In this document: piece by piece, positions 7,879 through 34,702 of the stretch
Numbering within the stretch: the stretch's first letter is position 1
How the letters are laid out: every line of letters starts with the position of its first letter
Source of the DNA: a virus
Taxonomy: Duplodnaviria > Caudoviricetes
Virus record (IMG/VR): IMGVR_UViG_3300017716_002150
Span: 1 to 34,702 of that record
DNA length: 34,702 nt
Direction: 5' to 3' (one strand)
Notes under the pieces: model-generated
What the model was told of the DNA's origin: nothing
What the model saw: the letters and a program-made list of their open reading frames with translations, nothing else
Database searches by the model: none
Translations under genes and position numbers: made by a program

Positions 7879-9081
7879 ATGACAACAAATTTTATTAGTC
7901 CTGCTATTCCGCAATCATATGCGGCACAGCAAAATGCACAGTATAGTCATACCGGCTCAAAGTATGTTGATTTGAATCAACGATTCAATGATACTATGTC
8001 TGCACTCGAACCCATGAAGGCCGCAGGTGTTCGTAGTCAAATCAAGAATGCTATTAAAGTATTCCAAAAAAATAATCCGCACATTAAATGTTTTCAAGAC
8101 CTGAAGTTATGTAAGGCGGGTGAAACACCCATGGCAGATATTTTAATTGATATTACTATTCAGCGGATCTTGAATCTAACTTGGGTGATTGAAATTATTA
8201 AAAATTTCCGCGAACCCCAGGCCGATCCGATTAAACTGTATGAAGTTATTCCTGGGGGTGACTTAGAAGATTACTATCCTGTAGGTACCAAACTATTTGC
8301 TAGTTGGGATGCTCAGCATACTGCTATTGTTTATTGGATTATTGCGGTAATGATTTTTGGACAAGATCCACGCAAAGTAATGGTTCCAACCATTGAGTAT
8401 TTTGTAAAAAATCGTTCTGAAATCCGCGAAAACTTTGTAAGTGGTAATAGCGACATTGGTAAATTACGCCTGGACTCAATCGACTTGTTCCGCCAAATGG
8501 TACTAGGTGTGCGCCTAGATGGTAATACAAAATCAGAGTGGGTTGAGGCAGAACTTAAACAACAGTATCTTGAGCAAGCTGGTTTGTTTGTAACAGCAGA
8601 AAAGTTTGGGGATACTCACATGCCAGGCGCTATCAGTCGTATGGCAGAGATTGACAAGTATACCAGTGATATTATTCGCAAGTTCTGCATGTACACTACT
8701 ACCATTCCTACCAAACGTAATATTGTTTCGCAGGAAATTGAGATCATGTGTGCTTGGTTTAGTATGGCTAAAGAAAGCGGTATTGACTACACCGATGACG
8801 AAGTTATCAGTTTAGGCGATCATTTACACGAGTTGTTTGACGCCGACTTTCACGAAAGTAGTGATTTCTGGATTAAAGTTCGTAAGGCATATGATAACTG
8901 GTGGACTAAACATTATGACGAAGTTCCGGCAAGCCATCGTCCTAAAAACACCAAGATGTCAAAGAACTGGAACACAGGTGGCACGTTTATCTGGCATCAG
9001 TTGAATAAGACCTGGAACGGACCTATTCCAAAGCTCAATGCTTCTACTCCGTTTATTCCTGCTAAAAAGGATTTATACTAA
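7879..9081 (+). CDS. ParB/Srx-fold DGQHR-like domain protein
   Basis: IDITIQR...IIKNF...SWDAQHT matches the (Y)QR...DGQH(R/T) signature of DndB/DUF262/DUF6551-type domains. Confidence 0.6.
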   Translation: MTTNFISPAIPQSYAAQQNAQYSHTGSKYVDLNQRFNDTMSALEPMKAAGVRSQIKNAIKVFQKNNPHIKCFQDLKLCKAGETPMADILIDITIQRILNLTWVIEIIKNFREPQADPIKLYEVIPGGDLEDYYPVGTKLFASWDAQHTAIVYWIIAVMIFGQDPRKVMVPTIEYFVKNRSEIRENFVSGNSDIGKLRLDSIDLFRQMVLGVRLDGNTKSEWVEAELKQQYLEQAGLFVTAEKFGDTHMPGAISRMAEIDKYTSDIIRKFCMYTTTIPTKRNIVSQEIEIMCAWFSMAKESGIDYTDDEVISLGDHLHELFDADFHESSDFWIKVRKAYDNWWTKHYDEVPASHRPKNTKMSKNWNTGGTFIWHQLNKTWNGPIPKLNASTPFIPAKKDLY

Positions 9082-9082
9082 T

Positions 9083-9661
9083 ATGGAAACCAAAAGCACA
9101 TTACAAGAATCTATGCAGAATATGCGTGGTAAAAAATATATTAATGTCAAGCGTAACAACAAGGCCTATGAACAGGCCTTGTCGACTACAACCGAAGAAT
9201 TAGAACGCTTAGTTGACTTATATCAAACCACAGTAGTTGAGGACGACATGCGAGCAAGGTTGTTAAGAGACAGCATCGATCATTGGGTTCGTCGTTATCA
9301 CAAGTATGCTATCCAAGGTAAGATTAAAAGTCACTATCATCAAAAGGGTGTAAGTTTAGCAGCCGAAGATTGTATTTTTGAACATGTAATTCCGGCATCT
9401 ACTGTGCGTGATAAACTAATTGCCGGTGAAATATCAATAAACCAGGCCTTGAATGTTCCTACTTGTCGGGTAAGTCGTCAAGTCGACCAACTACTTCGCA
9501 AGAAAGGTTTGCACGATAGTACACCAGATGGTTGGTTCTTTTTTAAACGCTATAAAATCGCATTAGACGATATAACCATTGAAACCTATAATGGGCAACC
9601 TATCACTAATTTAGATATGTGGACTTTGCAAGATCACTTTGATTTATTTGGAATTGTATGA
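9083..9661 (+). CDS. putative His-Me finger (HNH/DUF1524-like) nuclease
   Basis: FEHVIP motif followed by PTCRVSRQVDQLL; AAGGA SD before ATG 9083. Confidence 0.5.
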   Translation: METKSTLQESMQNMRGKKYINVKRNNKAYEQALSTTTEELERLVDLYQTTVVEDDMRARLLRDSIDHWVRRYHKYAIQGKIKSHYHQKGVSLAAEDCIFEHVIPASTVRDKLIAGEISINQALNVPTCRVSRQVDQLLRKKGLHDSTPDGWFFFKRYKIALDDITIETYNGQPITNLDMWTLQDHFDLFGIV

Positions 9662-10710
9662 GCTACTTAGACGAAATCCGAGCCCGGTACGATATCAAGG
9701 ACTATGTTGAGCCCACGGTTGCTATACCCGATCTACCTAAAGATGGTATTGTGCTAATCGTGGGTACATCCGGTTCGGGCAAAACTACAATCTTAAAGAC
9801 TGTAGACGATCCCAAACCTATTGTGGTTGATCCAGCAAAAACAGTTATTGAAAACTTTAGCACTCCCAAACGTGGTGAAGAACTATTGCTTGCGTGTGGC
9901 CTGCGTACCATTCCAGCTTGGTTTCGAGCGCCCGGTACATTGAGCAATGGTGAATACCATAGATTTGAAATTGCCGTAGGATTGGATCAAGGGCACTGCA
10001 TCATTGATGAGTTTACTAGTGTAGTAGATCGTGATACTGCTAAGAGTCTCGCATTGAGTGTTCGCAAATATTTTGATCGTAATCCTGGTGTGTTGTATAT
10101 TGCCAGTTGCCACAGAGACATTATTGACTGGTTAGATCCAGAATGGGTTTATGACACTGACCTGCAGAAACTTGATAATCGGAGGTCACTTCTTCGACTG
10201 GGGACCAGACCAGAACTTACACTTACCATCCGAAGCACAACTCCGGACTATTGGCGATATTTCAGTAAGTATCACTATCTAGATACCAACATGAGTCGCA
10301 GTGTTCACTGCTATGTGTTGTTGCTAGGGGACAAGCCTATCGGCTTCCATGCTGCTATACACTCGACTAATAGAGATATTCATAGTTATTGGCGCGGACA
10401 CAGAACTGTGATACTACCAGAGTTTCAAGGCATGGGCATAGGCACAGCGTTTTCAGATGCTATTGCTCAAATCTATGTTAACAAGGGCCTGCGTTACTTT
10501 AGCAAAACAGCACATCCAAGTTTTGGTGAGCATAGAGAACGATCTGATCTATGGCGGCCAACATCAACTAACAAGAAAAGTCGATTAGGCAGTTACCTAA
10601 ACAAAGATGGAACTACCAGAACAATGCCCGGATATGGCGGAACTACTACAGCTAGAGATGCTGGCCGTATTTGTTACAGTCACGAATATATTGGACCCAA
10701 AAAACCATAA
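9658..10710 (+). CDS. ABC-type ATPase fused to GNAT acetyltransferase
   Basis: Walker A GTSGSGKT, signature LSNGE, Walker B IIDEF, H-loop SCH; C-terminal HYL and RTVILPEFQGMGIG acetyl-CoA motif. Confidence 0.85.
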   Translation: MSYLDEIRARYDIKDYVEPTVAIPDLPKDGIVLIVGTSGSGKTTILKTVDDPKPIVVDPAKTVIENFSTPKRGEELLLACGLRTIPAWFRAPGTLSNGEYHRFEIAVGLDQGHCIIDEFTSVVDRDTAKSLALSVRKYFDRNPGVLYIASCHRDIIDWLDPEWVYDTDLQKLDNRRSLLRLGTRPELTLTIRSTTPDYWRYFSKYHYLDTNMSRSVHCYVLLLGDKPIGFHAAIHSTNRDIHSYWRGHRTVILPEFQGMGIGTAFSDAIAQIYVNKGLRYFSKTAHPSFGEHRERSDLWRPTSTNKKSRLGSYLNKDGTTRTMPGYGGTTTARDAGRICYSHEYIGPKKP

Positions 10711-10771
10711 AAATATATTCGCAGGTCCATAGGCACAATCTATTAAAAACCACCATATATACTGCTATAAT
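10707..10771 (+). promoter_or_regulatory. OxyR-like (LysR) operator abutting an extended -10 promoter
   Basis: ATAA-N7-TTCG-N7-ATAG-N7-CTAT (10707-10743); weak -35 TTAAAA; TGcTATAAT 10763-10771. Confidence 0.55.
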
Positions 10772-10795
10772 ATAGTTTTACAATAGGAGAATACT

Positions 10796-10936
10796 ATGGA
10801 ACAGTATGTATGTGGAGTATGTGGCCACGTTCACGATGAGGCCGTTGAAGGTGTGTTTGCAGAACTCAGCGACAACTTTCTTTGCCCTGAGTGTGGGTGC
10901 TACAAAGACGAGTATGCAGTAATGGAAGCAACCTAA
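10796..10936 (+). CDS. rubredoxin (46 aa, missing from ORF track)
   Basis: MEQYVCGVCGHVHDEAVEGVFAELSDNFLCPECGCYKDEYAVMEAT; two CxxC; AGGAG SD. Confidence 0.9.
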   Translation: MEQYVCGVCGHVHDEAVEGVFAELSDNFLCPECGCYKDEYAVMEAT

Positions 10937-10940
10937 CCGG

Positions 10941-10969
10941 TTGCTTCTGAGCAGTAAAAGTAGTACAAT
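10941..10969 (+). promoter_or_regulatory. sigma70-type promoter for rubrerythrin
   Basis: TTGCTT-17-TACAAT. Confidence 0.55.
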
Positions 10970-10995
10970 AAATTTTAACTAAAGGAGAAGTAAAC

Positions 10996-11436
10996 ATGGC
11001 AAAAACCGTAAAAGGTACCAAAACAGAACACGCATTGAAAGATGCGTTCGCAGGCGAATCCAAAGCCAACCGCCGTTATTTGTATTTCGCAAACATGGCT
11101 GACGTAGCGGGCTCACCAGATGTGGCAGCAGTATTTCGCTCCACAGCCGAAGGTGAAACAGGTCATGCCCATGGTCACATGGAATATTTGATCGATGGTG
11201 GAGCAGGTGACCCTGAAACAGGTCTTCCAGCTGGCTCGGTTAAAGAAGCCCTAGAAAGTGCTATCGCTGGTGAAACACATGAGTACACAGATATGTACCC
11301 AGGCATGGCTAAAACAGCACGCGACGAAGGCTTTGACGAAATCGCTGACTGGTTTGAAACATTGGCTAAGGCTGAGCGTAGCCACGCAAACAAGTTCACC
11401 AAGACTTTGACAGCGCATTTAGAAGACATCAAGTAA
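10996..11436 (+). CDS. rbr: rubrerythrin (short form, no C-terminal rubredoxin domain)
   Basis: [38 protein letters not shown] di-iron motifs. Confidence 0.92.
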
Positions 11437-11637
11437 TTGGAAACCCGAACAAGAACTCTTGTTAAAACTTTGATCTACCGGTGCTGGGTGATACTCAGCA
11501 CTTATGTGATGTTGTTGGTCACGGGTCAAAGCATGACAGAGGCTCTTGTTCCAACCATTGTAATAAACTGTGTCTGGATGACGTCCTACTATCTGTATGA
11601 CCGATTCTGGGCACATATTGCCTGGGGACGTAAATGA
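11437..11637 (+). CDS. DUF2061 small membrane protein
   Basis: [14 protein letters not shown]...[11 protein letters not shown]; TTG start. Confidence 0.8.
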
Positions 11638-11943
11638 ATGCAAGTTGTCGCCTGGCCCGTCTGGCTTGAACGCCATATTCCCTACTACGAACGTAATAAA
11701 CAACAAGATCGTTACTATAACAATCCACCTGAGTCGGTGCTGGTTGTAGATCCTGTAGATCGTAATCGTCGAGCAGGACAACATGGTTTTGCTTGGTCAA
11801 CCTGGGAAGCCATGGACAACGACATCCGATCTTTACAGTATCGTGTCGAACCTGTGTTCCTAGACACAGACACACACCAACGCTGGTATTGGGTTTTTTG
11901 GTCAGCAGATGAAGCTCTTATGGCAGTGATACGCTTGTCATAA
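11638..11943 (+). CDS. hypothetical protein
   Basis: 101 aa, ends WVFWSADEALMAVIRLS. Confidence 0.6.
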   Translation: MQVVAWPVWLERHIPYYERNKQQDRYYNNPPESVLVVDPVDRNRRAGQHGFAWSTWEAMDNDIRSLQYRVEPVFLDTDTHQRWYWVFWSADEALMAVIRLS

Positions 11944-11978
11944 CTGTAACAAAACTGTAATATTATCTCTCTTAAATA
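11944..11978 (+). promoter_or_regulatory. Pho box upstream of pstS, followed by TAAATA
   Basis: CTGTAAC-AAAA-CTGTAAT 11944-11961 (11-bp period); extra TTGTCAT 11935; TAAATA 11973. Confidence 0.8.
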
Positions 11979-12018
11979 AAATTGTGCAATCGCACACTCA
12001 ACCTTAAGGGAGATTTCT

Positions 12019-13026
12019 TTGAAACATTTATTTCTAGCAGTACTCGCAGTATTCACCGTAACAGCACAAGCCGCAGACATTACTGGCGCAGGTGCTACAT
12101 TTCCATATCCAATCTACGCCAAGTGGGCAGAAGATTATGCCAAACTTTCTGGTAATCGACTAAACTATCAAAGTATCGGTAGTTCTGGTGGTATTAAACA
12201 AATCAAAGCCAAGACTGTAGACTTTGGTGCCACAGATGCTCCGTTGTCAAGTGACGACCTAGCCAAGTCTGGTTTGGTGCAGTTTCCAGCGGTGTTGGGC
12301 GGTGTTGTTCCTGTGATAAACTTGGAAGGTATTAAACCAGGCGAATTGCAAGTCACAGCCGAAGTACTAGCAGACATTTTTCTAGGTAATATTACTAAAT
12401 GGAATGACGCTCGGCTTGCCAAGTTAAATCCAGGCAAAAAACTACCAGACACAGATATCACAGTGGTTCATCGTGCCGACGGATCCGGTACAACATTTAT
12501 TTTTACCGATTACTTGACGGAAGTCAGCAAGGAATGGAGCACCAAAGCCGGCAAAGGTGCCGCAGTCAAATGGCCAGCCAAGAGCAGTGTAGGAGGCAAA
12601 GGCAATGAAGGTGTAGCAGCAAACGTAACTCGTGTTAAAGGTGCAATCGGCTATGTCGAATATGCCTATGCCAAGAAAAACAAAATTGCACACCTTAAGT
12701 TACAAAATCGCGATGGCAAATTTGTGGATCCTGATGACACCACTTTTGCATCGGCTGCCGCAGGCGCTGATTGGTTTAGTGTTCCTGGTATGGGTATTAG
12801 TCTTGTGAATCAAAAGGGTGCAAGTGCTTGGCCTATTACTGGTGCTAGTTTTGTTTTAGTATACAAGGACCCAGCCAATCCAGCGGCCACACAAGAAGTC
12901 TTAAAGTTCTTTGACTATGCATTTACTTACGGAGCCAAACCGGCAGAGAGTCTTGACTATGTTCCACTACCAAAAACATTAACAGATAAAATCAAATCAC
13001 AAGTTTGGTCAACTGTTAAGAAGTAA
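12019..13026 (+). CDS. pstS: phosphate ABC transporter substrate-binding protein PstS
   Basis: signal peptide; ITGAGATFPYPIY, YQSIGSSGG, RADGSGTT, GKGNEGV. Confidence 0.96.
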   Translation: MKHLFLAVLAVFTVTAQAADITGAGATFPYPIYAKWAEDYAKLSGNRLNYQSIGSSGGIKQIKAKTVDFGATDAPLSSDDLAKSGLVQFPAVLGGVVPVINLEGIKPGELQVTAEVLADIFLGNITKWNDARLAKLNPGKKLPDTDITVVHRADGSGTTFIFTDYLTEVSKEWSTKAGKGAAVKWPAKSSVGGKGNEGVAANVTRVKGAIGYVEYAYAKKNKIAHLKLQNRDGKFVDPDDTTFASAAAGADWFSVPGMGISLVNQKGASAWPITGASFVLVYKDPANPAATQEVLKFFDYAFTYGAKPAESLDYVPLPKTLTDKIKSQVWSTVKK

Positions 13027-13074
13027 TTTTAAAACCGGACATAAAGATAGAGTGTCGCTGGAGCTCGTAACCAG

Positions 13075-13120
13075 TTGTAACAAAAGTGTAATACTTTTTT
13101 CTCTGGCATTGCAGTAAATA
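13075..13120 (+). promoter_or_regulatory. second Pho box plus TAAATA
   Basis: TTGTAAC-AAAA-GTGTAAT 13075-13092; TAAATA 13115, 5 nt before ATG 13126. Confidence 0.7.
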
Positions 13121-13125
13121 GCTGT

Positions 13126-13938
13126 ATGCCAGAGAAAACTTACCGTTCAATTTTTATTTCAGATGTTCACCTGGGCACTCGCGACTGTAAGGCCGAGGCA
13201 CTTAATAATTTTCTCAAACACAATACCTGCGAAACCCTATATCTTGTAGGCGACATCATAGATGCCTGGCGTATTCAACAAAACAAGTGGCGTTGGAAAC
13301 AAAGCCATACTAATGTAGTTCGTCGAGTCATGGGTCATGCCAAACGAGGTACTCGTGTGGTATATGTTGCAGGCAATCACGACGAATTCCTTCGCCCCTT
13401 AATACCATTAGGCATTGGATTTGGGCTCATTGAAGTAGTAAATCAAGCAGAGCACATTGGAGTAGATACCAAACACTATCTGGTCACTCACGGCGACTTG
13501 TTTGATGGCATCACTCGTCTTGCTCCGTGGCTGGCTTTCCTTGGCGATAAAGCCTATGACTTTGTGCTCGGTCTCAATAGCAAATTCAATTGGCTACGTC
13601 ATCGTATGGGATTTGGATACTGGAGTTTAAGCAAGTATCTCAAAGGCAGAGTTAAAAAAGCCGCTGACTTTGTATTTCAATTTGAAAAGAATCTTGTTGT
13701 TTATTGTAAGAAGCGTGGATACGATGGTGTAATATGTGGACACATACACCACGCAGAAATTCGTGATGTAGATGGTATCACATATATGAACGATGGCGAC
13801 TGGGTAGAGAGTATGACTGCCTTAGTTGAAAATCACAACGGATTCTGGGAAATAGTAACCTGGACCAAGGAGACAGACGATGTGGCTGTTGATAATACTA
13901 GCAGTAAACATAAACAATCCAAAAGACGTGCCGGGTAG
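13126..13938 (+). CDS. plcP: PlcP-like metallophosphoesterase (phospholipase C; LpxH-like family)
   Basis: YRSIFISDVHLG, LYLVGDIIDAW, GNHDE, HGDLFD, CGHIHH, NDGDWVES; adjacent GT4 gene as in plcP-agt loci. Confidence 0.75.
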   Translation: MPEKTYRSIFISDVHLGTRDCKAEALNNFLKHNTCETLYLVGDIIDAWRIQQNKWRWKQSHTNVVRRVMGHAKRGTRVVYVAGNHDEFLRPLIPLGIGFGLIEVVNQAEHIGVDTKHYLVTHGDLFDGITRLAPWLAFLGDKAYDFVLGLNSKFNWLRHRMGFGYWSLSKYLKGRVKKAADFVFQFEKNLVVYCKKRGYDGVICGHIHHAEIRDVDGITYMNDGDWVESMTALVENHNGFWEIVTWTKETDDVAVDNTSSKHKQSKRRAG

Positions 13939-14056
13939 GTTAACTATAGAATTTCCTAGCGAATCTGCTTGTGTTCAAGCCCAACAAAGTGTAAAATATT
14001 GGTTAAAGTTTGACAACTTCAGGATAACCACATCATGCCAAAAACAATCCTTATAA
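13880..14056 (+). CDS. 58-aa protein with hydrophobic N-terminus and two Cys (missing from track)
   Basis: AAGGAG SD 13867-13872; MWLLIILAVNINNPKDVPGRLTIEFPSESACVQAQQSVKYWLKFDNFRITTSCQKQSL. Confidence 0.65.
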   Translation: MWLLIILAVNINNPKDVPGRLTIEFPSESACVQAQQSVKYWLKFDNFRITTSCQKQSL

Positions 14057-15030
14057 TCACAGACAATGTCCAAGATCAAGTCAACGGAGTGGTCACAACT
14101 TTCAAAAACTTGGAAGATCATGCTGACCGTAACGGGTATTGTATTGTTTATTGTGATCCCGGGCAGTTTCCTAATATTGCTTGCCCTGGTTATCCTGAAG
14201 TTCGCCTGTGCTGGCCGCATGGTATCAGTAAAAAAATTAAGGCGCTACAGCCGGATTATATACACATCGCTACAGAAGGCCCAGTAGGTTTATTTGCTCG
14301 TTGGTGGTGTGAGCGCAAAAATATACCTTACAACACCAGTTATCACACCAAGTTCCCAGAATTCCTAAACAAATTGTATGGTGTTCCAGAATCTTGGACC
14401 TACTGGTATATGCGTTGGTTCCACAGACACAGTGAGCGTGTGCTGGTCACTACCGAAAGTATGCGTCAAGATTTAGAAAGTCGTGGATTCAAAAATTTAG
14501 TAGTATGGACTCGTGGCGCCGATCGCACCATTCAACCTAGAGTTACACGACCCACTTATCGGGCGCGGCCAAGATTATTATCGGTAGGTCGCGTGTCAAA
14601 AGAAAAGGGGTTGGATGATTTAATACAGTTCCAGGAAGACTATGATTTGATTATAGTCGGCGATGGACCGTATCGTGCCGAGTTGGAACGGAAACTACCT
14701 CAGGCAACATTTTTTGGATACCTGCATGGTCAAGAACTAGTGGATCAATACGCACTAGCTGATGTGTTTGTATTTCCGTCAGTGACTGACACCTTTGGTG
14801 TGGTCATCATTGAAGCATTATCACAAGGTTGCCCAGTCGCAGCCTACCCGGTAGCAGGACCCATCGACATTATCAAAAACGGTGTCACTGGATACTTAGA
14901 TAACAACCTAGCACAATCAGTTCGTAATTGTTTGGCTCTAAACAACGATCGAGTCAAACGAGCCAGTCAAAAATGGACTTGGAAAGAGTGCTGGCGCATA
15001 TTCAAAAAGAACCTGGTTACTGTTGCGTAA
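14035..15030 (+). CDS. GT4 (GT-B) glycosyltransferase, Agt-like diacylglycerol glycosyltransferase
   Basis: QVNGVVTT, HIATEGPVG, SYHTKFPE, VGRVSKEK, FPS.TDTFG.V..EA..G.PVAAYPV.GP. Confidence 0.85.
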   Translation: MPKTILIITDNVQDQVNGVVTTFKNLEDHADRNGYCIVYCDPGQFPNIACPGYPEVRLCWPHGISKKIKALQPDYIHIATEGPVGLFARWWCERKNIPYNTSYHTKFPEFLNKLYGVPESWTYWYMRWFHRHSERVLVTTESMRQDLESRGFKNLVVWTRGADRTIQPRVTRPTYRARPRLLSVGRVSKEKGLDDLIQFQEDYDLIIVGDGPYRAELERKLPQATFFGYLHGQELVDQYALADVFVFPSVTDTFGVVIIEALSQGCPVAAYPVAGPIDIIKNGVTGYLDNNLAQSVRNCLALNNDRVKRASQKWTWKECWRIFKKNLVTVA

Positions 15031-15060
15031 AAACAACATTGTGAAACCCAGCCCAAAAGG

Positions 15061-15089
15061 TTGACCAGAATCTCACCATTTGCTATAAT
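15061..15089 (+). promoter_or_regulatory. sigma70-type promoter
   Basis: TTGACC-17-TATAAT, extended TG. Confidence 0.85.
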
Positions 15090-15118
15090 AGTTGTATAGT
15101 AAATAAAAGGAGTAGTAA

Positions 15119-15283
15119 ATGAATACATATCAAGTAAGTTACACAGCATACGAAAAAAACTCTACTGTGGTATTAGCGGAAGGCACCATGCAAATTCAAG
15201 CCAATCAAGGTAGCCAAGCTGAGAATGTGGTTAAAAGTATGTTTCAAGGCAGTGATGTTATCATTCGTTCAGTATTTGGTTAA
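15119..15283 (+). CDS. 54-aa hypothetical protein (missing from track)
   Basis: AAGGAG SD; MNTYQVSYTAYEKNSTVVLAEGTMQIQANQGSQAENVVKSMFQGSDVIIRSVFG. Confidence 0.7.
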   Translation: MNTYQVSYTAYEKNSTVVLAEGTMQIQANQGSQAENVVKSMFQGSDVIIRSVFG

Positions 15284-15284
15284 T

Positions 15285-15446
15285 ATGATTGATCGAAACA
15301 TTCAATCAGATGAAATGGTACCTCCAGAGTATGATATGGATGCTGGTGAGTATCAAGAGTTTCAAAGAGATTATAACCGTTGGTGTTTGGAAGTTGAGCT
15401 GGCTCAAATTGAAGAACTGAACAAAACGGTTAACCAAAATTCGTAA
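15285..15446 (+). CDS. small acidic hypothetical protein
   Basis: ATG 15285 one base after the upstream stop. Confidence 0.55.
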   Translation: MIDRNIQSDEMVPPEYDMDAGEYQEFQRDYNRWCLEVELAQIEELNKTVNQNS

Positions 15447-15451
15447 TATGG

Positions 15452-15480
15452 TTGACAGGAATTGTCCAATCAGCTATAAT
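15452..15480 (+). promoter_or_regulatory. consensus sigma70 promoter
   Basis: TTGACA-17-TATAAT. Confidence 0.88.
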
Positions 15481-15560
15481 ATGAATATGCTGTAAAATTA
15501 AAACAGCATAGAAGTAAAATTTAAATCAACTTAATAGGCAACTTAGAAAGGCAACACAAA

Positions 15561-15878
15561 ATGGAAAAATTATTCACAGTAGCAGGTACAGCAACTAATC
15601 CTGATGGTACTACTAAAGCTCGTTTTGCAAACGACTTGGTAGCTCGTATCAAGATCTTGAACAAAGCAGGCTGTACTGGTATCAACTTGGTTGAGCTCCC
15701 AAAGCCAATGACTAAGTTAGAAGCTCTACAATATTTGCAAACACAAAACCCAGAAGGTGATGCGGGTTATGCTGTAGCAAACAAGTTGGCAGAGAAGACC
15801 AAGCTCGCTAAGAAAGGCGAAGTAAAGGTCAAAGCAACTGGTGTCAAGGCAACTACTAAAGTAGCAGAAGTAGCCTAA
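15561..15878 (+). CDS. basic hypothetical protein, probably highly expressed
   Basis: own promoter and terminator; Lys/Ala-rich tail. Confidence 0.8.
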   Translation: MEKLFTVAGTATNPDGTTKARFANDLVARIKILNKAGCTGINLVELPKPMTKLEALQYLQTQNPEGDAGYAVANKLAEKTKLAKKGEVKVKATGVKATTKVAEVA

Positions 15879-15886
15879 TACTGATA

Positions 15887-15908
15887 GGGGGCTAAGGCCC
15901 CCATTTTT
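15887..15908 (+). terminator. intrinsic terminator
   Basis: GGGGGC-TAAG-GCCCCC-ATTTTT. Confidence 0.8.
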
Positions 15909-15922
15909 AAGAAAGAAATATC

Positions 15923-16282
15923 ATGAGTAAGCCAGTATTTGAAGATTTATTCAAATTTAGCGGTCGTCGTAATCGACAATCGTTTATTTTCTTGCAATTA
16001 GCAAGTATTGTAGCAGTCTTGCTAGCGGTAGGAATTATTACTACTATTACTGTAGTGGCTCCTACACTAGGTGCAATCCTTTGGTTTGTTGGTATTGTTG
16101 GTTTTATTGCTATTGCAATTATTAACTGGGCAGCCGCTAGTCAACGTATTCGCGACTTTAACCAATCGGGTGTATGGGCATTGGTAATGTTGATTCCATA
16201 CATTGGTCCATTGTTTAGTCTAGCACTTTGGTTAATTCCAAGCACAGAAGGTGAGAACAAATACGGTCCTAGCTGTATTTAA
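15923..16282 (+). CDS. DUF805 (YhaH-like) inner-membrane protein
   Basis: F.FSGR.NR..F, RIRD.NQSG.W, G.NKYGP; 3 TM segments. Confidence 0.88.
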   Translation: MSKPVFEDLFKFSGRRNRQSFIFLQLASIVAVLLAVGIITTITVVAPTLGAILWFVGIVGFIAIAIINWAAASQRIRDFNQSGVWALVMLIPYIGPLFSLALWLIPSTEGENKYGPSCI

Positions 16283-16290
16283 AGAATGTC

Positions 16291-16442
16291 ACCCAGCTTC
16301 AGGGTAAATGAAGAGTGGATCACCAGCTTTAATGGTGTGGGTTAAATGGGTTAGACTGAAATCTATTACGCTTGTTTGGTGCGGAACTAAACTAACGATG
16401 ATACTCCTTGCCCGGGGCCTTACGACAATAGGTAGCCGGGCA
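16291..16442 (+). ncRNA. candidate structured intergenic RNA
   Basis: ACCCA/TGGGT enclosing CTTCA/TGAAG and CACCA/TGGTG; GTTAG/CTAAC; TGCCCGG/CCGGGCA; no credible ORF. Confidence 0.4.
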
Positions 16443-16470
16443 CCTTCTTGACCAGATAAGTATCTTTATC

Positions 16471-16710
16471 ATGACCGAAGATAACGAACTTGACCGACGT
16501 ATAAAAACCTTGATGTTTGATCTTATGCTGGTATTGTACTCGCATGGTATCAAGGAAGTCAATGTCGGTGCAATAATGCGTGTGCTAGGTGTAGAATCAG
16601 AAGTAGCTGCTGAGCACGACGACGAAGCTGTTGAACTCACAGACGAATTTGCTAAGTATGTTAAAGAGGCACGAGAAACCAAACGGCCCGATAACATAAC
16701 CTTACATTGA
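16471..16710 (+). CDS. hypothetical protein
   Basis: 79 aa; TAAGTA at 16457 upstream. Confidence 0.7.
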   Translation: MTEDNELDRRIKTLMFDLMLVLYSHGIKEVNVGAIMRVLGVESEVAAEHDDEAVELTDEFAKYVKEARETKRPDNITLH

Positions 16711-16953
16711 ATGTCATTACCTAGTTATAAATCAGGGGAAGCCCTTTATACTGTGATCATACGAGATCCTGAAGCTAAAAACCGTTTAACTAAATGGACG
16801 GCAACCAGCCGATCAATACAAGCCCGGGTAGAAGACAATCGCATGCATATATACGATCACAACACCTTGAGCCTACTTCTAGTAACCTGGCCGCACGGTT
16901 GGGACAACATGGTTATTTGGGATCCTTGGACAAAACGGCACATTAATATTTGA
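16711..16953 (+). CDS. hypothetical protein
   Basis: 80 aa abutting the upstream stop. Confidence 0.7.
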   Translation: MSLPSYKSGEALYTVIIRDPEAKNRLTKWTATSRSIQARVEDNRMHIYDHNTLSLLLVTWPHGWDNMVIWDPWTKRHINI

Positions 16954-16977
16954 CATACCTACGTTATATGCTATAAT
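16950..16977 (+). promoter_or_regulatory. sigma70-type promoter
   Basis: TTGACA-16-TATAAT, extended TG. Confidence 0.75.
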
Positions 16978-17016
16978 TAATAGGTGCATAACGCACTTAT
17001 AACAAAGGAAATAGCA

Positions 17017-17202
17017 ATGACAACTCATGAACAAATCGTAGAAGCATTTAATAACTATATTGCTGAAAACGAAAAATTCACAACCAAAGGCGTAAAAGCC
17101 TCTGCTGCTCGTGCTCGCAAAGCATTACAAGAAATGAGCAAAGGAATCAAAGAGCGTCGTAAAGAAATTACTGCTGAAAAAGAAGCTCTTGCCGCAAAGT
17201 AA
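17017..17202 (+). CDS. histone H1-like Hc1-family nucleoid protein
   Basis: EKF..KGVKASAARARKAL.E..K..KERRKE; AAGGA SD before ATG 17017. Confidence 0.75.
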   Translation: MTTHEQIVEAFNNYIAENEKFTTKGVKASAARARKALQEMSKGIKERRKEITAEKEALAAK

Positions 17203-17596
17203 GACCAAGCCTCTTAATGGTATGGTATCGCAACCTGGATATGGTGCGGTACCACCTACTCCTATCTACAGTAATGTAACTATCACTAGCACAGGAGCAA
17301 CTACCGCTCCAATCTACACCATAGGTACTGGCGTCGCAAGTCCGTGGATGTCCACTAATGCTGATACTAATAGCACTAAAATAAATTTAAATGGTAAAGA
17401 TGCTGATATAGTGATCAATGGACACAGTTTAACAGAAACCTTGCAAGCTCTACAAGAACGCCTACACATCCTAGTACCCAATACAGAATTAGAGCAGGAA
17501 TGGGCCGAACTTAAACGGTTAGGTGATGCATATCGCAAGTTAGAACAAGACCTTACGGAAAAGGCCTCTATGTGGAAGGCTTTGAAGAAAATCTAA
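17189..17596 (+). CDS. hypothetical protein with C-terminal coiled coil
   Basis: Thr-rich N-terminus, ADIVING.SL, ELEQEWAELK; start uncertain (alternative ATG 17222). Confidence 0.65.
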   Translation: MPQSKTKPLNGMVSQPGYGAVPPTPIYSNVTITSTGATTAPIYTIGTGVASPWMSTNADTNSTKINLNGKDADIVINGHSLTETLQALQERLHILVPNTELEQEWAELKRLGDAYRKLEQDLTEKASMWKALKKI

Positions 17597-18982
17597 ATGT
17601 CTGCATGGCAAGAATTTTATAACGAGATAAAAGACCCTAGTTGGCCGGAGTGTCCTACTGAGGATCAATTCCAACTGCTCCCAGAAAATATACAAAAAGA
17701 ATGTCAAGAAGTTTTTGGCTACGTTCCAGGATCATTTAAAAAAACTTCAAAACTACGCAATCAAGTTTTCCCTATACACACCAAAACTGCTTGCCAACTT
17801 AAATGGAATTGGAGCACTATATTTCTAACTACAGAAGAAACAGGTAGTTGCCATAGAACCAACCATCATAAGTTTGATACCGAAGAATTTAATTTTCATA
17901 ACACTCCTAATAAACTAGAAGATCGTCAACGTATGCTTGAAGGCGAGTGGCCCAAGCGAGGATGTGAGTACTGTAAGAATATCGAAGAAGCCGGGGGCAT
18001 CAGTGACAGAATTACAAATTTAGACTTTCCTGGAATACATGCACCGCCTGAGTTAGAAATCAATCCTCGGGCTGTGCAAGTTACTCCACGAATACTAGAA
18101 GTATATTTTGATAATACCTGTAATTTAAAATGTCTTTATTGCGGACCGCATTTTAGCAGTCTGTGGAATGCAGAAAACGTAAAGTTTGGACAGCCTGCGT
18201 TCAATAAAAGTACCAACATTGAAAAGAACAAACAAAAAATATTTGAATGGTTAAAAGTTAACGGAAAACATCTAACTAACTTTAACATACTGGGTGGTGA
18301 GCCTCTGTATCAACGTGAGCTGGATGATTGTTTAGATTTATTTGAACAATACCCTGCCCCAGAATTAAAACTTCAAATTTTTACCAATCTCAACACCAAA
18401 ATTAGTCACCTAACACAAGTGGTTGAACGTGTTAAAGGATTAGTTGACAGTGACAAACTTAGAGGGTTTGAAGTTACTGCCAGTCTGGATTGCTGGGGGC
18501 CACAACAAGAGTTTGTAAGATACCCGCTGGATTTAGTATCCTGGGAGAAGAACTTTGAATATTTACTATCACAAAAATGGATCAACTTGATTGTGAGCAG
18601 TACTGTTACTCCTTTAACAATTAAAACCTTGCCCGACTTGCTTAAAAAAATACAAGAATGGAATAAAATTCGTCCAGTGTATCATTATCAAAACAGTGTC
18701 AATAGTCCTAGTTATATGTTTATTGATATTTTTGGAAATATTTTTGCCGATGATTTTAATCAGGCACTAGAATTGAAACCAACGAACACACCGGAACAAC
18801 TATCCAGTAAAGAATATCTAAGCGGTATAGCCAAACAATCAAACGCCGCTAGTCCTAACGTAGTAGAAATAACAAAACTATTTGATTTTTTAAATGAGAT
18901 GGATCGACGTAGATCGACTAGTTGGCAGAAAATCTTTCCGTGGCTAGAAAAAGAGTTTAAAAAATATAGTTTAGTACCATAA
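17597..18982 (+). CDS. radical SAM enzyme with extra Cys (Twitch-like) region
   Basis: CNLKCLYC, GGEP, FTN; upstream CQLKW...SCH...GCEYC. Confidence 0.88.
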   Translation: MSAWQEFYNEIKDPSWPECPTEDQFQLLPENIQKECQEVFGYVPGSFKKTSKLRNQVFPIHTKTACQLKWNWSTIFLTTEETGSCHRTNHHKFDTEEFNFHNTPNKLEDRQRMLEGEWPKRGCEYCKNIEEAGGISDRITNLDFPGIHAPPELEINPRAVQVTPRILEVYFDNTCNLKCLYCGPHFSSLWNAENVKFGQPAFNKSTNIEKNKQKIFEWLKVNGKHLTNFNILGGEPLYQRELDDCLDLFEQYPAPELKLQIFTNLNTKISHLTQVVERVKGLVDSDKLRGFEVTASLDCWGPQQEFVRYPLDLVSWEKNFEYLLSQKWINLIVSSTVTPLTIKTLPDLLKKIQEWNKIRPVYHYQNSVNSPSYMFIDIFGNIFADDFNQALELKPTNTPEQLSSKEYLSGIAKQSNAASPNVVEITKLFDFLNEMDRRRSTSWQKIFPWLEKEFKKYSLVP

Positions 18983-19060
18983 TAGCTGTATATAATGACA
19001 AAAACATATCAAAACAAGTAGATTTTTTACTGGTTTAAATTTTTGTCACTAAGTATTTTA

Positions 19061-21541: not shown

Positions 21542-21760
21542 ATGAGCAAAGATGATTTTATTAAAATGGAAGGCGTTATAGCAGAAGTTCTGCGTAATAC
21601 TCAATACCGAGTTCAGCTTGAGAATTTTGAAAAACCTGTACTTGCAAGCCTAAGTGGCCGTATGCGTCAAAACAACATCAAAGTTTTAACCGGCGACATA
21701 GTAGAGTTAGAATTCAGCCCATATGATTTGACCCGTGGACGAATTGTCCGCCGTAGATAA
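21542..21760 (+). CDS. infA: translation initiation factor IF-1
   Basis: MSKDD.I.MEG.I.E.L.N..YRV.LEN...SGRMR...I.VLTGD.V.LE.SPYDLTRGRI. Confidence 0.95.
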   Translation: MSKDDFIKMEGVIAEVLRNTQYRVQLENFEKPVLASLSGRMRQNNIKVLTGDIVELEFSPYDLTRGRIVRRR

Positions 21761-21768
21761 GTAATAAT

Positions 21769-22317
21769 ATGGACATGCGTAAAGAAATCAATTTAATAGA
21801 AGCAAGCACTCAACCGGCCAAGCTAGAAACTACTCCTTTGCCTTACACGGAACGGGCCTTGGAGCCTGTGATGAGCAAGGCCACAATCGACTATCACTAT
21901 GAGCACCTAGCTAAAGGTTATGCTAAACGCTACAATGCCGATGAAGGCAATGCTGCATTTAACCGTGCTGGTAGCTTCTTACACAATAAGTTCTTTCCTC
22001 AACTACAGCCTCCTAAAGGTGCTAATCGTCCCAAGGGCGCAGTACTAGAGTTAATCGAAAGTAACTTTAAAACCTATGAAGACTTTAAAATCGAATTTAA
22101 AAAAGTGGCCATGGCCATCCAGGGATCAGGCTGGGTATATCTTAGCACATCGGGCACAATTAAAACCATCCCAAATCATCAGGTTAGAACAGATATCTGT
22201 GTACTCGTTGACTGGTGGGAACATGCCTGGGCACTTGACTATCAAAGCGACAAAGAAAAATACCTAGACAATATTTGGAAAATTATTAACTGGTCAGTCT
22301 GTAGCGAACGTCTGTAG
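21769..22317 (+). CDS. sod: Fe/Mn superoxide dismutase (compact)
   Basis: LPY...ALEP.MS..T..YH, LHN.FF, QGSGW, DWWEHA. Confidence 0.9.
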   Translation: MDMRKEINLIEASTQPAKLETTPLPYTERALEPVMSKATIDYHYEHLAKGYAKRYNADEGNAAFNRAGSFLHNKFFPQLQPPKGANRPKGAVLELIESNFKTYEDFKIEFKKVAMAIQGSGWVYLSTSGTIKTIPNHQVRTDICVLVDWWEHAWALDYQSDKEKYLDNIWKIINWSVCSERL

Positions 22318-22352: not shown

Positions 22353-23891
22353 ATGATAGATTTTGTAATTTGTGCGATGCCCGCACTGATTCTTGAAAGC
22401 CTTCCTGGTGCACCTGCCATTATTAAATCGGCAGTGGAGCAGACTGGGTATTCTGCTCGGGCGCTGGATTTATCATTGGAGTTTTACATAAAACAATGCA
22501 ACAGTGATGTTGCTACCTATCATCAATTGAGTGGTGTGTTTCGACCTAGCGAGTCATTTGAAAGCTCGGCTCAGGCAGCTAGTGATGAGTGGATTGAAGA
22601 TTCTATACAAAGTATTCAGGCTTTTAATCCTAAAATTATTGGACTTAGTGTATTTTCAGCATTCCAACATAGATCTACCTATCTGTTGGCACAAGAGTTA
22701 AAACGTCGCATGCCCAAAACCAAAATTGTGCTTGGCGGCATGGGGTTATCAATCAACTGTTCTAGTCTTAGTAATTTTAATATTCCTATTAAAAAGATTG
22801 ATCTTGTTAAATCTTATCATCAGTACATGACCGAACTGGGTCTAGCTGACTACATTGTGCTGGGCAGTGGACTTGATGAACTCGTGGGGATCTTAGGAAA
22901 GGAAATAGGTCAAGGACGCACCACAGATACCAAGTTTAACAACACATCTGTAATTTTTAAAACACCTATTCCTGACTACGACGACTATAAAATTTCTGAA
23001 TACTGTTGGCACAATCGCAAGTACCTGCCGGTAACTGGCAGCAAAGGCTGTGTGAGATCCTGTGCGTTCTGTGACATACCAGGACAGTTTGGACGTTTTA
23101 GTTTTCGCACTGGCGAAGACATTGCTAACGAGATGATTTTTCTTAAAGAAAAATACGGTGTGAGTACTTTTGAATTTACAGACAGTTTAGTCAATGGTAG
23201 TTTTAAAGCATTCCGCCAATGGTTGACCATTGTTGCAGAGTACAACGACAATCGTTTAAGTCACGATCAAATACGTTGGTTTGGACAATACATTTGTCGA
23301 CCTCAAGCGCACACGCCCAGCGACATCTACCCATTAATGGCACGCTCGGGTGTGATTGATTTGAAAATTGGTGTTGAAAGCGGTAGTGATGCTGTACTAG
23401 AGGCCATGCGTAAAAAAGTAACTGCCAAGGATGTACTAGACGAGCTGGAACAGTTTGAGAAAAATAAAATAAGTTGTACCTTTTTAATGTTCAGCGGATT
23501 TTATAACGAAACGTCTGAATACTTTTATGAAACTTTAAAGTTTTTGGTCGATTGCCAACCTTATGTGGCATCTGGAACGATCAACACAGCAAGTTTCGGA
23601 CAACCTTTGAATATACATAGCGGAACCTATTTGTACAACGAAGCAGATCGGTTGGGCTTAATTTTAGATCCTTACGACGAATCTCAATGGACTAGTATTC
23701 ATGACCCCGACAACGACTATGTACAACGATCAAAAAATCGTATCATTGCACAACTGCTAGCCGGTGCACTAGGATACCCGTTTTCCAAGTTAGGTGTTGG
23801 ACTTGATTATCAAAATTTACAAAAATTAAAAAGACGCAAACAAGAATTAGAAAAGTTATTACATGACACTACACAGCTCACAACAAACTAA
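22353..23891 (+). CDS. B12-binding-domain radical SAM enzyme
   Basis: IIGLSVFS..IVLGG N-terminal domain; GSKGCVRSCAFC; DSLVNG; IGVESGS. Confidence 0.85.
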   Translation: MIDFVICAMPALILESLPGAPAIIKSAVEQTGYSARALDLSLEFYIKQCNSDVATYHQLSGVFRPSESFESSAQAASDEWIEDSIQSIQAFNPKIIGLSVFSAFQHRSTYLLAQELKRRMPKTKIVLGGMGLSINCSSLSNFNIPIKKIDLVKSYHQYMTELGLADYIVLGSGLDELVGILGKEIGQGRTTDTKFNNTSVIFKTPIPDYDDYKISEYCWHNRKYLPVTGSKGCVRSCAFCDIPGQFGRFSFRTGEDIANEMIFLKEKYGVSTFEFTDSLVNGSFKAFRQWLTIVAEYNDNRLSHDQIRWFGQYICRPQAHTPSDIYPLMARSGVIDLKIGVESGSDAVLEAMRKKVTAKDVLDELEQFEKNKISCTFLMFSGFYNETSEYFYETLKFLVDCQPYVASGTINTASFGQPLNIHSGTYLYNEADRLGLILDPYDESQWTSIHDPDNDYVQRSKNRIIAQLLAGALGYPFSKLGVGLDYQNLQKLKRRKQELEKLLHDTTQLTTN

Positions 23892-24516: not shown

Positions 24517-24836
24517 TTATAGAAACAACTGCTGTTGAAAAAATTAAAGATATTTTAGCCGAAGAAAATAATCCAGAATTACGACTACGTGTATTTGTAC
24601 AGGGCGGCGGTTGCTCAGGCATGCAGTATGGATTTACTCTGGATAGTGTGCAAAACGATGACGACTTTAACACCGACATTGATGGTATTTCTGTACTGGT
24701 CGACAGCACAAGTTGGCAATACTTACACGACGCTAAAATACGCTACGATGACGGTGTAATGGGGGCAAGTTTTGTAATTGATAATCCCAATGCTCAAAGC
24801 ACCTGCGGTTGCGGCAGTTCATTTAATCCGTACTAG
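24513..24836 (+). CDS. erpA: A-type Fe-S carrier ErpA/IscA (HesB family)
   Basis: LRVFVQGGGCSGMQYGF, NPNAQSTCGCGSSF. Confidence 0.93.
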   Translation: MIIETTAVEKIKDILAEENNPELRLRVFVQGGGCSGMQYGFTLDSVQNDDDFNTDIDGISVLVDSTSWQYLHDAKIRYDDGVMGASFVIDNPNAQSTCGCGSSFNPY

Positions 24837-33685: not shown

Positions 33686-34294
33686 ATGAAATCGAAATAT
33701 AGCAAGAGAAAAAACTTAATCCTAACTGACTGTGATGGCGTATGCCTTGACTGGGAGTGGGCCTTTAATGTTTGGATGCAGGAACACGGCTTTGAGGAAG
33801 TGGCTGGTAGCAAACTCAACTATGACATGAGCATACGCTACGGCATTCCTAGAGAACAAGTGGTCAAACTCATACGCATCTTCAATGAAAGTGCTGCCAT
33901 AGGATTCTTACCAGCACAGCGCGATGCCATGTACTACATCAAACGATTGCACGAAGAACACGGCTACAGATTTCATGCTATCACCAGCTTGAGTCTAGAT
34001 CCTAATGCTCAGAAATTGCGTGAAATGAACATTCACAAACTATTTGGTGATGCATTTGAAAGAATTGTGTGCTTGGACACTGGTGCCCATAAAGACGAAG
34101 CCTTAGAAGAATATGAAGGCACTGGCTTTTGGTGGATTGAAGATAAAGTGGAAAATGCTGAGGCCGGCTACAAGGCAGGATTAAAACCTCTGCTTGTAGA
34201 ACACGGCCACAACATGCACTACTATCACGAACATGTGACCATCGTAAAAAACTGGAAGCACATTTACGAAGTGGTCACTGGTCAGTCGGCATAA
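33686..34294 (+). CDS. HAD-superfamily 5'(3')-deoxyribonucleotidase-like phosphatase
   Basis: LILTDCDGV motif I, ITS motif II, K, WIEDK motif IV. Confidence 0.82.
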   Translation: MKSKYSKRKNLILTDCDGVCLDWEWAFNVWMQEHGFEEVAGSKLNYDMSIRYGIPREQVVKLIRIFNESAAIGFLPAQRDAMYYIKRLHEEHGYRFHAITSLSLDPNAQKLREMNIHKLFGDAFERIVCLDTGAHKDEALEEYEGTGFWWIEDKVENAEAGYKAGLKPLLVEHGHNMHYYHEHVTIVKNWKHIYEVVTGQSA

Positions 34295-34702
34295 AGGCGT
34301 AACACAGAATCAATGATCTTGTGTCGCTGTATGTCGCGATTATCTAAATCGCATACAGCAATGCCCTTTACACCTCCTTCCTGCAGTCTTTGGCATAGGT
34401 CCAAGAGGCCATTGTTGCCGCGGTTGCGATCCGCCTGTTCTACGTCGCCCGTGATTACTATCTTACTACCTTCGCCAATACGGGTCATTAGCATTTTTAC
34501 TTGATTGGGTGTGGCATTTTGCATTTCGTCTGCAATAATAAAAGCACCCTTGAAAGTACGCCCACGCATAAATGCCAAGGGCGCAATTTCGATCACTTGA
34601 TCGGCGATCATAGCGGCTATATCGGGTTGACGATAATATTCACGCAAGATATCTGTTAATGGCCGTACCCACGGATCCATCTTTTGATTCAAGTCGCCGG
34701 GC
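34282..34702 (-). CDS. phoH: PhoH-family ATPase (5'-partial, runs off the window)
   Basis: PGDL..K.DP, IEIAPLAFMRGRTF, IIADEMQN, TRIGEGSK..ITGD..Q.D. Confidence 0.93.
   Translation of the reverse strand, partial: PGDLNQKMDPWVRPLTDILREYYRQPDIAAMIADQVIEIAPLAFMRGRTFKGAFIIADEMQNATPNQVKMLMTRIGEGSKIVITGDVEQADRNRGNNGLLDLCQRLQEGGVKGIAVCDLDNRDIQRHKIIDSVLRLYAD

What the first reader, a model, noticed from the sequence alone, without database searches (positions are those of the whole stretch)
11944..15030. Pho-box-controlled pstS + PlcP-like + Agt-like cassette: phage-encoded membrane lipid remodelling to mine phosphate
Seen: pstS and a metallophosphoesterase each have their own Pho box, the phosphoesterase is followed by a GT4 glycosyltransferase, and phoH is also in the window. 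Established: in P-starved proteobacteria (Sinorhizobium, Agrobacterium, SAR11), PhoB-induced PlcP cleaves phospholipids to diacylglycerol and Agt-type GT4 enzymes convert it to P-free glycolipids. Phage pstS with Pho boxes is known from cyanophages. Inference: this phage carries the whole two-enzyme pathway, releasing host membrane P for genome synthesis while keeping the membrane intact. I am not aware of a characterised phage example.
Basis: partly seen in the sequence, partly recalled or inferred. Interest (0 to 1): 0.85.

Follow-up and report, generated by a model that had tools for sequence, protein, structure and literature searches.

The report
Jumbo phage phosphate-starvation lipid-swap module
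A giant uncultured lake phage carries close relatives of the two bacterial enzymes that cut the phosphate head off membrane lipids and put a sugar in its place, plus a phosphate-binding protein, each unit behind a conserved DNA box that likely senses phosphate starvation, so the virus likely draws phosphorus from its host's membrane to build its own DNA.

Summary
Observation confirmed, with corrections. 13126-13938 is PlcP/LpxH2-family: 52-56% identical to P. aeruginosa PlcP, 45% to S. meliloti, 23% to E. coli LpxH, and it has His where LpxH has Arg. 14035-15030 keeps the Agt/GTcp catalytic residues. Boxes at 11944 and 13075 are the top two hits in the window of a matrix built from other phages; held-out test 20/29 against 4/315 controls. 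A chimera is unlikely. Enzyme activity, PhoB binding, expression and benefit are untested. Ten literature searches found no phage PlcP; virome papers list 'lpxH' under LPS synthesis. This scan has noted the module before on other phage genomes.

The parts
11944..11961 (+). Pho-box-like direct repeat before pstS; also the 5' edge of the pstS module
   Evidence: top matrix hit in window; homology to close relatives L124/L125 starts at 11945; a contig in run X3 joins 11437 to 11944; all 8 phage pstS genes fetched have a box scoring 10.4-19.4
11973..11978 (+). TAAATA, predicted T4-type late promoter core, 11 nt after the box
   Evidence: sequence; 7 of 8 phage pstS genes have TAAATA 11 or 21 nt after the box; NATAAATA late motif in PMC2984593
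12019..13026 (+). PstS, periplasmic phosphate-binding protein with hydrophobic signal-like N-terminus
   Evidence: NCBIfam over cut-off; hydropathy; dN/dS 0.043 against L124; best cellular matches 69-70% in Burkholderiales genomes
13075..13092 (+). Pho-box-like direct repeat before plcP; 5' edge of the plcP module
   Evidence: second matrix hit; homology to L124/L125 breaks at 13074/13076
13115..13120 (+). TAAATA, predicted late promoter core, 22 nt after the box and 5 nt before the ATG (probably leaderless message)
   Evidence: TAAATA ends 4-8 nt before the called ATG in 39 of 59 phage groups, at 5 nt in 25; Shine-Dalgarno-like word in 1 of 59
13126..13938 (+). PlcP/LpxH2-family metallophosphoesterase (predicted phospholipase C), 270 aa
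   Evidence: identities and metal motifs D13-H15, D43, N84-H85, H122, H206-H208; tree; model matches LpxH fold with helical lid; dN/dS 0.018
13880..14056 (+). 58-aa protein of unknown function with an invariant cysteine pair; overlaps plcP by 59 nt and the GT4 by 22 nt
   Evidence: found after plcP in 47 of 59 phage groups; all 80 best loci fetched with its alignment have plcP upstream; dN/dS 0.15 in the non-overlapping part; beta-beta-alpha-beta model, pLDDT 91.5; like other small phage proteins, no clear PDB match
14035..15030 (+). Agt-type GT4 glycosyltransferase (predicted diacylglycerol glycosyltransferase), 331 aa
   Evidence: 38% to P. aeruginosa Agt1, 37-43% to GT4s beside bacterial plcP, 24-29% to E. 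coli WaaB/WaaG; GTcp residues kept; dN/dS 0.078
34282..34701 (-). phoH, cut by the contig end; not part of the module
   Evidence: PF02562 E 3e-46

Best explanation
A T4-like jumbo phage carries a PlcP-family enzyme, a small unknown protein and an Agt-type glycosyltransferase as one module, and pstS as a second, each behind a conserved repeat box that host PhoB likely binds when phosphate is scarce, so that late in infection the phage likely converts host phospholipids into phosphorus-free glycolipids and likely uses the freed phosphorus for its own DNA. Steps: (1) shown: gene identities, order, boxes, spacing to TAAATA, conservation under purifying selection. (2) inferred: phosphorylated host PhoB binds the box, which in the 11-nt class sits at about -40 to -23 if transcription starts 6 nt after TAAATA, the usual PhoB activator position (recalled). 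(3) inferred from family: PlcP cuts phospholipid to diacylglycerol plus a phosphorylated head group, and the GT4 adds a sugar from a UDP-sugar to the diacylglycerol, keeping the bilayer whole. (4) inferred: host enzymes free phosphate from the head groups, and PstS feeds the host transporter from outside.
For: Family placement of both enzymes. Same plcP-GT4 order in 23 of 29 Burkholderiales and 19 of 20 alphaproteobacterial loci. In phages, 55 of 59 groups have a glycosyltransferase after plcP, 35 GT4 and 20 GT2; of the other 4, three are cut short and one has neither. 78 of 80 GT2 loci have plcP upstream and the other two are cut: two unrelated folds fill one slot, as a need to glycosylate the PlcP product would predict. 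Boxes are specific to plcP and pstS and mark module edges. Box end to TAAATA is 10-11 or 21-22 nt in 36 of the 37 boxes with a TAAATA downstream (43 boxes scored 10 bits or more). Long relatives encode a late sigma factor (5 of 5) and no PhoB/OmpR-type DNA-binding domain was found (0 of 5). dN/dS 0.02-0.15. A rough budget with assumed cell sizes puts membrane P at about 4 to 20 phage genomes per cell. Host PhoBR control of cyanophage genes is published (PMC10976474, passages).
Against: No activity, binding or expression data. Phage half-sites mostly read TGTAA(C/T) while boxes before bacterial plcP read TGTCA(C/T), although some phages have the canonical form at the same place (L048, L077, L079). 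PMC10976474 reports that predicted Pho boxes in a phage often failed binding tests. 9 of 29 held-out groups lack a box. At the GTcp Asp256 position 14 of 18 phage GT4s have Glu, a change that cut GTcp activity by over 90%, though the window has Asp and the P. aeruginosa Agt2 orthologue has Glu. The GT2 has no characterised close relative, and its bacterial relatives (28-33%) do not lie beside plcP. Membrane P is only about a fifth of the three pools counted. Pelagiphage Mosig and cyanophage S-SRM01 have plcP with no glycosyltransferase nearby. The host is unknown.
Confidence: 0.6

Rival explanations
1. Same enzymes and same trigger, different pay-off: the module keeps the host's own remodelling running after host shut-off, or changes the cell surface so the infected cell is less often re-infected or grazed; phosphorus gain is secondary.
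For: 92 of 201 Burkholderiales genomes searched already hold plcP. Remodelled Phaeobacter is ingested less by a ciliate (PMC9457565, passages); a review cites unpublished data that remodelling changes phage adsorption (PMC9804370, passages). GT4/GT2 label changes at least 10 times on the PlcP tree among 55 labelled rows, which could reflect selection on the product.
Confidence: 0.2
2. The boxes are not PhoB sites but sites for another host or phage factor, or part of the promoter itself; the module is a plain late operon not tied to phosphate status.
For: GTAA half-sites differ from the bacterial GTCA form. A T4-type late sigma lacks the region that PhoB normally contacts (recalled). Prediction of phage Pho boxes is unreliable.
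Against: 11-nt period; specificity for plcP and pstS (20/29 against 4/315); canonical boxes in the same position in some relatives; most other TAAATA-led genes have no box (94 of 804 other ORFs have TAAATA; 4 of 315 control regions have a box).
Confidence: 0.1
3. The phosphoesterase acts on other phosphodiesters and the glycosyltransferase modifies another acceptor (LPS, a cell-surface glycan or a virion protein).
For: Phage enzymes form their own long-stemmed clades; NCBIfam has no PlcP or Agt model above cut-off for them; the GT2 is uncharacterised.
Against: Identity to P. aeruginosa PlcP (52-56%) is above that between the P. aeruginosa and S. meliloti enzymes (47%); predicted DAG-contact residues His104, Arg160, Trp316 kept; gene order as in bacteria.
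Confidence: 0.07
4. It is LpxH of lipid A synthesis, as database names say, or a host fragment joined to a phage contig.
For: JGI and RefSeq names read LpxH; best solved folds are LpxH.
Against: 23% identity over 120 aa to E. coli LpxH; His, not the Arg that PMC5016852 calls LpxH-specific; PRK05340 45 bits against cut-off 134. Depth even across 8000-19000 in run X1, which may be the source sample, with contigs bridging both module edges; same order in L124/L125; no pstCAB beside pstS; GC flat.
Confidence: 0.03

Closest known systems
Bacterial PlcP-Agt lipid-renovation operon (P. aeruginosa PA3219-PA3218; S. meliloti SMc00171; SAR11 HTCC7211 PlcP and GTcp; Methylosinus OB3b)
   Same: Same two families, same order, Pho-box-like site upstream; catalytic residues kept.
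   Different: Viral; own old clades not nested in Burkholderiales (AU p 0.013, LG+G4, 47 rows, 8 long rows dropped); extra 58-aa gene not found in 58 bacterial loci; GT4 replaced by GT2 in 20 of 59 groups; box coupled to a TAAATA late-type promoter; GTAA half-sites.
Cyanophage pstS/phoA under host PhoBR control (P-SSM2, S-SM1; S-PM2d genes; PMC10976474, passages)
   Same: Phage pstS behind a host-type box.
   Different: Those supply uptake or nucleotide functions; this adds a membrane pathway. PstS here is proteobacterial type (about 40% to cyanophage PstS; 69-70% to Burkholderiales).
Pelagibacter phage Mosig gene 120 and Synechococcus phage S-SRM01 'UDP-2,3-diacylglucosamine hydrolase'
   Same: PlcP-family genes in cultured phages (48% and 37%); Mosig's lies head to head with pstS.
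   Different: Annotated as LpxH-like; no glycosyltransferase in the flanks read; the matrix finds no strong box there.
LpxH (lipid A pyrophosphatase)
   Same: Fold and metal ligands.
   Different: Arg80 replaced by His; 23% identity; below family cut-offs.

Membership tests
PlcP/LpxH2 | Metallophosphoesterase motifs D-x-H, GD, GNH(E/D), H, GHxH (PMC3087551) | tested here: met
   SDVH 12, GDIID 42, GNHD 83, HGD 122, GHIH 205
PlcP/LpxH2 | Similarity to characterised PlcPs at the level they share with each other (46-47%) | tested here: met
   52-56% and 45% to P. aeruginosa and S. meliloti orthologues from other strains (L090, L091; assigned by length 270 and 281 aa as, mutual identity 46.6% as, and recalled gene order)
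PlcP/LpxH2 | Tree placement with PlcP, apart from LpxH | tested here: met
   95-row tree; LpxH on a branch of 10 changes per column, phage clade SH-aLRT 99
PlcP/LpxH2 | Mn-dependent phospholipase C activity giving DAG | not testable with these tools
   needs assay
LpxH | Arg after the metal-binding Asn (GNRD) | tested here: not met
   His in the window and in all 30 phage rows checked
LpxH | Score over TIGR01854/PRK05340 cut-off | tested here: not met
   33 against 190; 45 against 134
Agt/GTcp GT4 clade | His104-Asp256 dyad; GRVAXEKN and FPSXTDTFG motifs; Gly16, 82, 85, Arg163, Arg190, Lys195, Glu264, Trp320 | tested here: met
   H104, D252, GRVSKEKG (two differences), FPSVTDTFG, G18, G82, G85, R160, R186, K191, E260, W316; mapped by motif and position from the paper's text, the GTcp sequence itself was not in hand
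Agt/GTcp GT4 clade | Identity to clade members well above the under-25% seen for other GT4s | tested here: met
   37-43% to GT4s beside bacterial plcP, 24% and 29% (117 aa) to WaaB and WaaG; the tree does not resolve the outgroups
Agt/GTcp GT4 clade | Glycosylates DAG | not testable with these tools
   needs lipidomics
Pho regulon promoter | Two 7-nt repeats with 11-nt period upstream of a P-stress gene | tested here: met
Pho regulon promoter | Close match to CTGTCAT-N4-CTGTCAT | tested here: inconclusive
   3 and 5 mismatches of 14; GTAA variant
Pho regulon promoter | PhoB binding and low-P induction | not testable with these tools
   no RNA holder listed
T4-type late promoter | (N)ATAAATA-like core at fixed distance, with a gp55-like sigma in the genome | tested here: inconclusive
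   TAAATA at 5 nt from ATG 32 times against 8 over five other distances (25 of the 32 are plcP); late sigma in 5 of 5 relatives; no TAAATA before two capsid genes read; timing not measured

The most novel reading that the evidence does not exclude
Host PhoB activates a phage late-sigma promoter directly, a hybrid switch that turns on a phage-built membrane-mining operon only in starved cells. The operon would hold a phospholipase C, a new accessory protein and either an Agt or a so far unknown GT2-type diacylglycerol glycosyltransferase, so that hundreds of lake jumbo phage contigs labelled 'lpxH' mark a viral route from membrane phosphorus into virions.
Probability: 0.25. Interest if true: 0.88.

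Novelty: new variant of a known kind. Interest (0 to 1): 0.72.

Why it matters
If true, phages rewrite the lipid chemistry of the infected cell to reach an internal phosphorus store, a kind of auxiliary metabolism not found in my ten literature searches. About 980 stored viral stretches are estimated to hold close relatives, so it could affect phosphorus and glycolipid budgets in lakes. It would also correct virome tables that count 'lpxH' as an LPS gene, point to a new glycolipid synthase (the GT2), and offer cultured pelagiphage Mosig as a ready test case for the PlcP half.

Tried and rejected
LpxH identity and chimera rejected (see rivals). phoH as support rejected: cut gene, 19 kb away. 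A fixed three-gene cassette rejected: pstS was within the flanks of 6 of 80 loci (flanks vary) and not found in 5 long relatives, 3 of them at least 90% complete (the query found pstS in other loci). Complex prediction of PlcP with the 58-aa protein gave no verdict (score 0.00). Fold searches for the 58-aa protein gave no clear PDB match (Foldseek best E 0.9, VIA best Z 5.7); Pfam and NCBIfam blank; Atlas gave unnamed clusters. No RNA holder listed. Sigma-70 scan of 10600-16500 found 9 sites against 12.4 expected. Strict box patterns on 5 long relatives found 1 and 3 matches; two of the three lie before plcP, the third (L335) was not tied to a gene. Host assignment failed: PstS points weakly to Burkholderiales, PlcP does not nest there. 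Six genome-contig hits: four look like phage contigs in bins (71-80% identity, phage-type neighbours), two cellular. Wei et al. 2018 on PlcP residues is not held. Shuffle control for GT label changes was printed for five shuffles only (13-18 against 10), so no p-value is claimed.
Full report
Setting. The window is a whole 34.7-kb linear virus record, about 10% complete. It holds a clamp loader, baseplate-like and cell-wall hydrolase genes and many unknown ORFs. Five long records that carry the same module (289-367 kb) have a clamp loader 60-64% identical to the window's and a T4-type major capsid protein (5 of 5), so the window is most likely a piece of a T4-like jumbo phage of about 350 kb. 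The best-matching run is a freshwater metagenome and may be the source.

Observation. pstS, the phosphoesterase and the GT4 are intact at the stated places. phoH exists but is cut by the contig end, on the other strand, 19 kb away. GC is flat. Depth in run X1 is about 50-70 over most of 8000-19000, with contigs bridging both outer edges of the cassette. Two other viral contigs have the same order at 92-98% protein identity and share flanking genes. A chimera is unlikely.

First enzyme. It is 52-56% identical to the P. aeruginosa PlcP orthologue, 45% to the S. meliloti one and 23% over 120 aa to E. coli LpxH. The two references come from other strains than the characterised ones; their lengths (270, 281 aa) and mutual identity (46.6%) fit the papers, and the gene order is recalled. 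It has all metal ligands and His where LpxH has its specific Arg. In a 95-row tree 30 phage rows and the window form one clade (SH-aLRT 99) among PlcPs. With eight long rows dropped and rows thinned to 47, the clade holds (100/99) and a union with Burkholderiales PlcP is rejected (AU p 0.013). The gene is therefore an old phage possession, not a fresh capture. The model has the LpxH fold with an aromatic, basic helical lid predicted at low confidence.

Second enzyme. It keeps the residues that mutagenesis showed to matter in the SAR11 DAG glycosyltransferase GTcp, mapped from the paper's text. It is 37-43% identical to GT4s that follow bacterial plcP, 38% to P. aeruginosa Agt1 and 24-29% to LPS GT4s. 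Against: 14 of 18 phage relatives have Glu at the catalytic Asp position; the window has Asp, and the Agt2 orthologue has Glu.

Relatives. About 980 stored viral stretches are estimated to match the plcP patterns; the best 80 were fetched and fall into 59 groups at 95% nucleotide identity. Counting the first member of each group, 35 have an Agt-type GT4 after plcP, 20 a GT2, none both, 3 are cut short and 1 has neither. From the other side, 78 of the best 80 GT2 loci have plcP upstream and two are cut. The label changes at least 10 times on the PlcP tree (55 labelled rows, one locus dropped for a stop). A RimK-like gene or a fatty-acid desaturase joins in some. In bacteria plcP is followed by the GT4 in 23 of 29 Burkholderiales, 19 of 20 alphaproteobacterial and 0 of 9 Bacteroidota loci (best-scoring loci only, 1.5-kb flanks). 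pstS lay within the flanks in 6 of 80 loci and was not found in 5 long relatives: it is a separate module.

Hidden gene. A 58-aa ORF (13880-14056) overlaps the plcP tail and the GT4 start. It follows plcP in 47 of 59 groups, all 80 best of 407 loci fetched with its alignment have plcP upstream (the query was built from plcP-linked copies), it was not found in 58 bacterial loci, and it is under purifying selection. Its predicted fold resembles many uncharacterised small phage proteins. Most likely it is a co-translated helper of the module; a passenger held by the overlaps is not excluded.

Regulation. A matrix seeded with the published consensus and trained on 30 groups scores 20 of 29 held-out groups against 4 of 315 control regions; trained on all 59, it ranks 11944 and 13075 first in the window. 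All 8 phage pstS genes fetched have a box. Homology to close relatives starts and breaks at the boxes, and one contig joins 11437 to 11944, so box and gene move together. Of 43 boxes scoring 10 bits or more, 37 have TAAATA downstream, 36 of them at 10-11 or 21-22 nt. TAAATA ends 4-8 nt before the plcP ATG in 39 of 59 groups, and 1 of 59 has a Shine-Dalgarno-like word, which fits a leaderless message from a T4-type late promoter (motif in PMC2984593). Relatives encode a late sigma and no PhoB-type domain was found in them. Cautions: rows are related; phage half-sites are mostly GTAA, bacterial ones GTCA; predicted phage Pho boxes have failed binding tests elsewhere; how PhoB would act on a late sigma is unknown.

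Mechanism and odds. Enzyme identities about 0.85; control by phosphate status about 0.75; phosphorus gain as the main benefit about 0.6 overall. With assumed cell sizes, membrane phosphorus equals about 4 to 20 genomes of this size and about a fifth of lipid, chromosome and rRNA phosphorus together. dN/dS against L124 is 0.018 (plcP), 0.078 (GT4), 0.043 (pstS) and 0.15 (small gene).

Literature. Searches (40 of 105 listed; 20 of 55 listed) listed no paper on a phage PlcP or phage-driven phospholipid replacement. Three virome or phage papers list 'lpxH' under LPS (passages); whether those genes are PlcP was not checked. I read passages only of PMC9239053, bioRxiv 10.1101/2021.04.14.439775, PMC8231724, PMC5016852, PMC3087551, PMC10976474, PMC9611531, PMC10653327, PMC13384950, PMC9004378, PMC9804370, PMC9457565, PMC10734472, PMC3037559 and PMC2984593. 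No supplement was read (one list seen), subscription journals are mostly absent, and supplementary gene tables could mention the gene. The S. meliloti, Phaeobacter and P-SSM2 primary papers are known to me through citations in these passages or from recall. Earlier AI notes of this scan describe the same module on other genomes, including the small gene and the late-promoter spacing; my own counts for those features came first, and the notes are not independent support.

Verdict. Real, conserved and widespread; a known bacterial pathway in a viral form with its own promoter design, an extra gene and an exchangeable second enzyme. New variant of a known kind; interest 0.72.

Noticed in passing
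L070:8901-9617 and loci L252-L331: A 238-aa GT2 replaces the GT4 after plcP in 20 of 59 groups; about 480 viral stretches hold relatives. Bacterial relatives at 28-33% mostly lie beside a DedA-like membrane gene (name recalled from the sequence).
   Followed up: partly
L082:4894-6729 (pelagiphage Mosig): Cultured SAR11 phage with pstS and a PlcP-family gene head to head, annotated as LpxH-like; no glycosyltransferase in 6-kb flanks.
   Followed up: partly
L039:7801-7959; L124:4585: A basic 52-aa ORF lies just before the plcP box in 33 groups and between pstS and plcP in the closest relatives, but not in the window.
   Followed up: partly
L060:8895-9785; L048:807-1517: RimK-like ATP-grasp gene inside the module in 6 groups; DesA-like desaturase nearby in 11.
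   Followed up: no
G027:C1:471061-474847 (L119, L149): A small Burkholderiales genome has plcP, GT4, one further gene and pstS-pstC in a row; its PstS is 69% identical to the window's.
   Followed up: partly
window 10996-11436, 21542-22317, 24513-24836, 16984-17202: Host-like genes: rubrerythrin, IF-1, superoxide dismutase, ErpA-like Fe-S protein, Hc1-like protein.
   Followed up: no
window 17597-18982, 22353-23891, 32193-33323: Three radical SAM genes: twitch-domain type over cut-off, a B12-binding type, and a third.
   Followed up: no
window 29317-29856: Stand-alone 179-aa piece similar to DNA polymerase III alpha (phrog_11127).
   Followed up: no
window 9658-10710: ATPase-acetyltransferase fusion (phrog_11143).
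   Followed up: no
window 13027-13074; L043, L055, L058, L059, L069, L076, L077 upstream of plcP: A recurring element ending in CGTAACCAG or CGTAACCGG follows pstS in the window and precedes plcP in several relatives, some of which lack a box; nature unknown.
   Followed up: no
L025, L049, L050 upstream of plcP: Upstream sequence looks like the 3' part of a tmRNA (reading by eye, from recall); these score under 10 bits for a box.
   Followed up: no
window 15061-15089, 15452-15480: Near-perfect sigma-70 promoters start the genes after the cassette.
   Followed up: no
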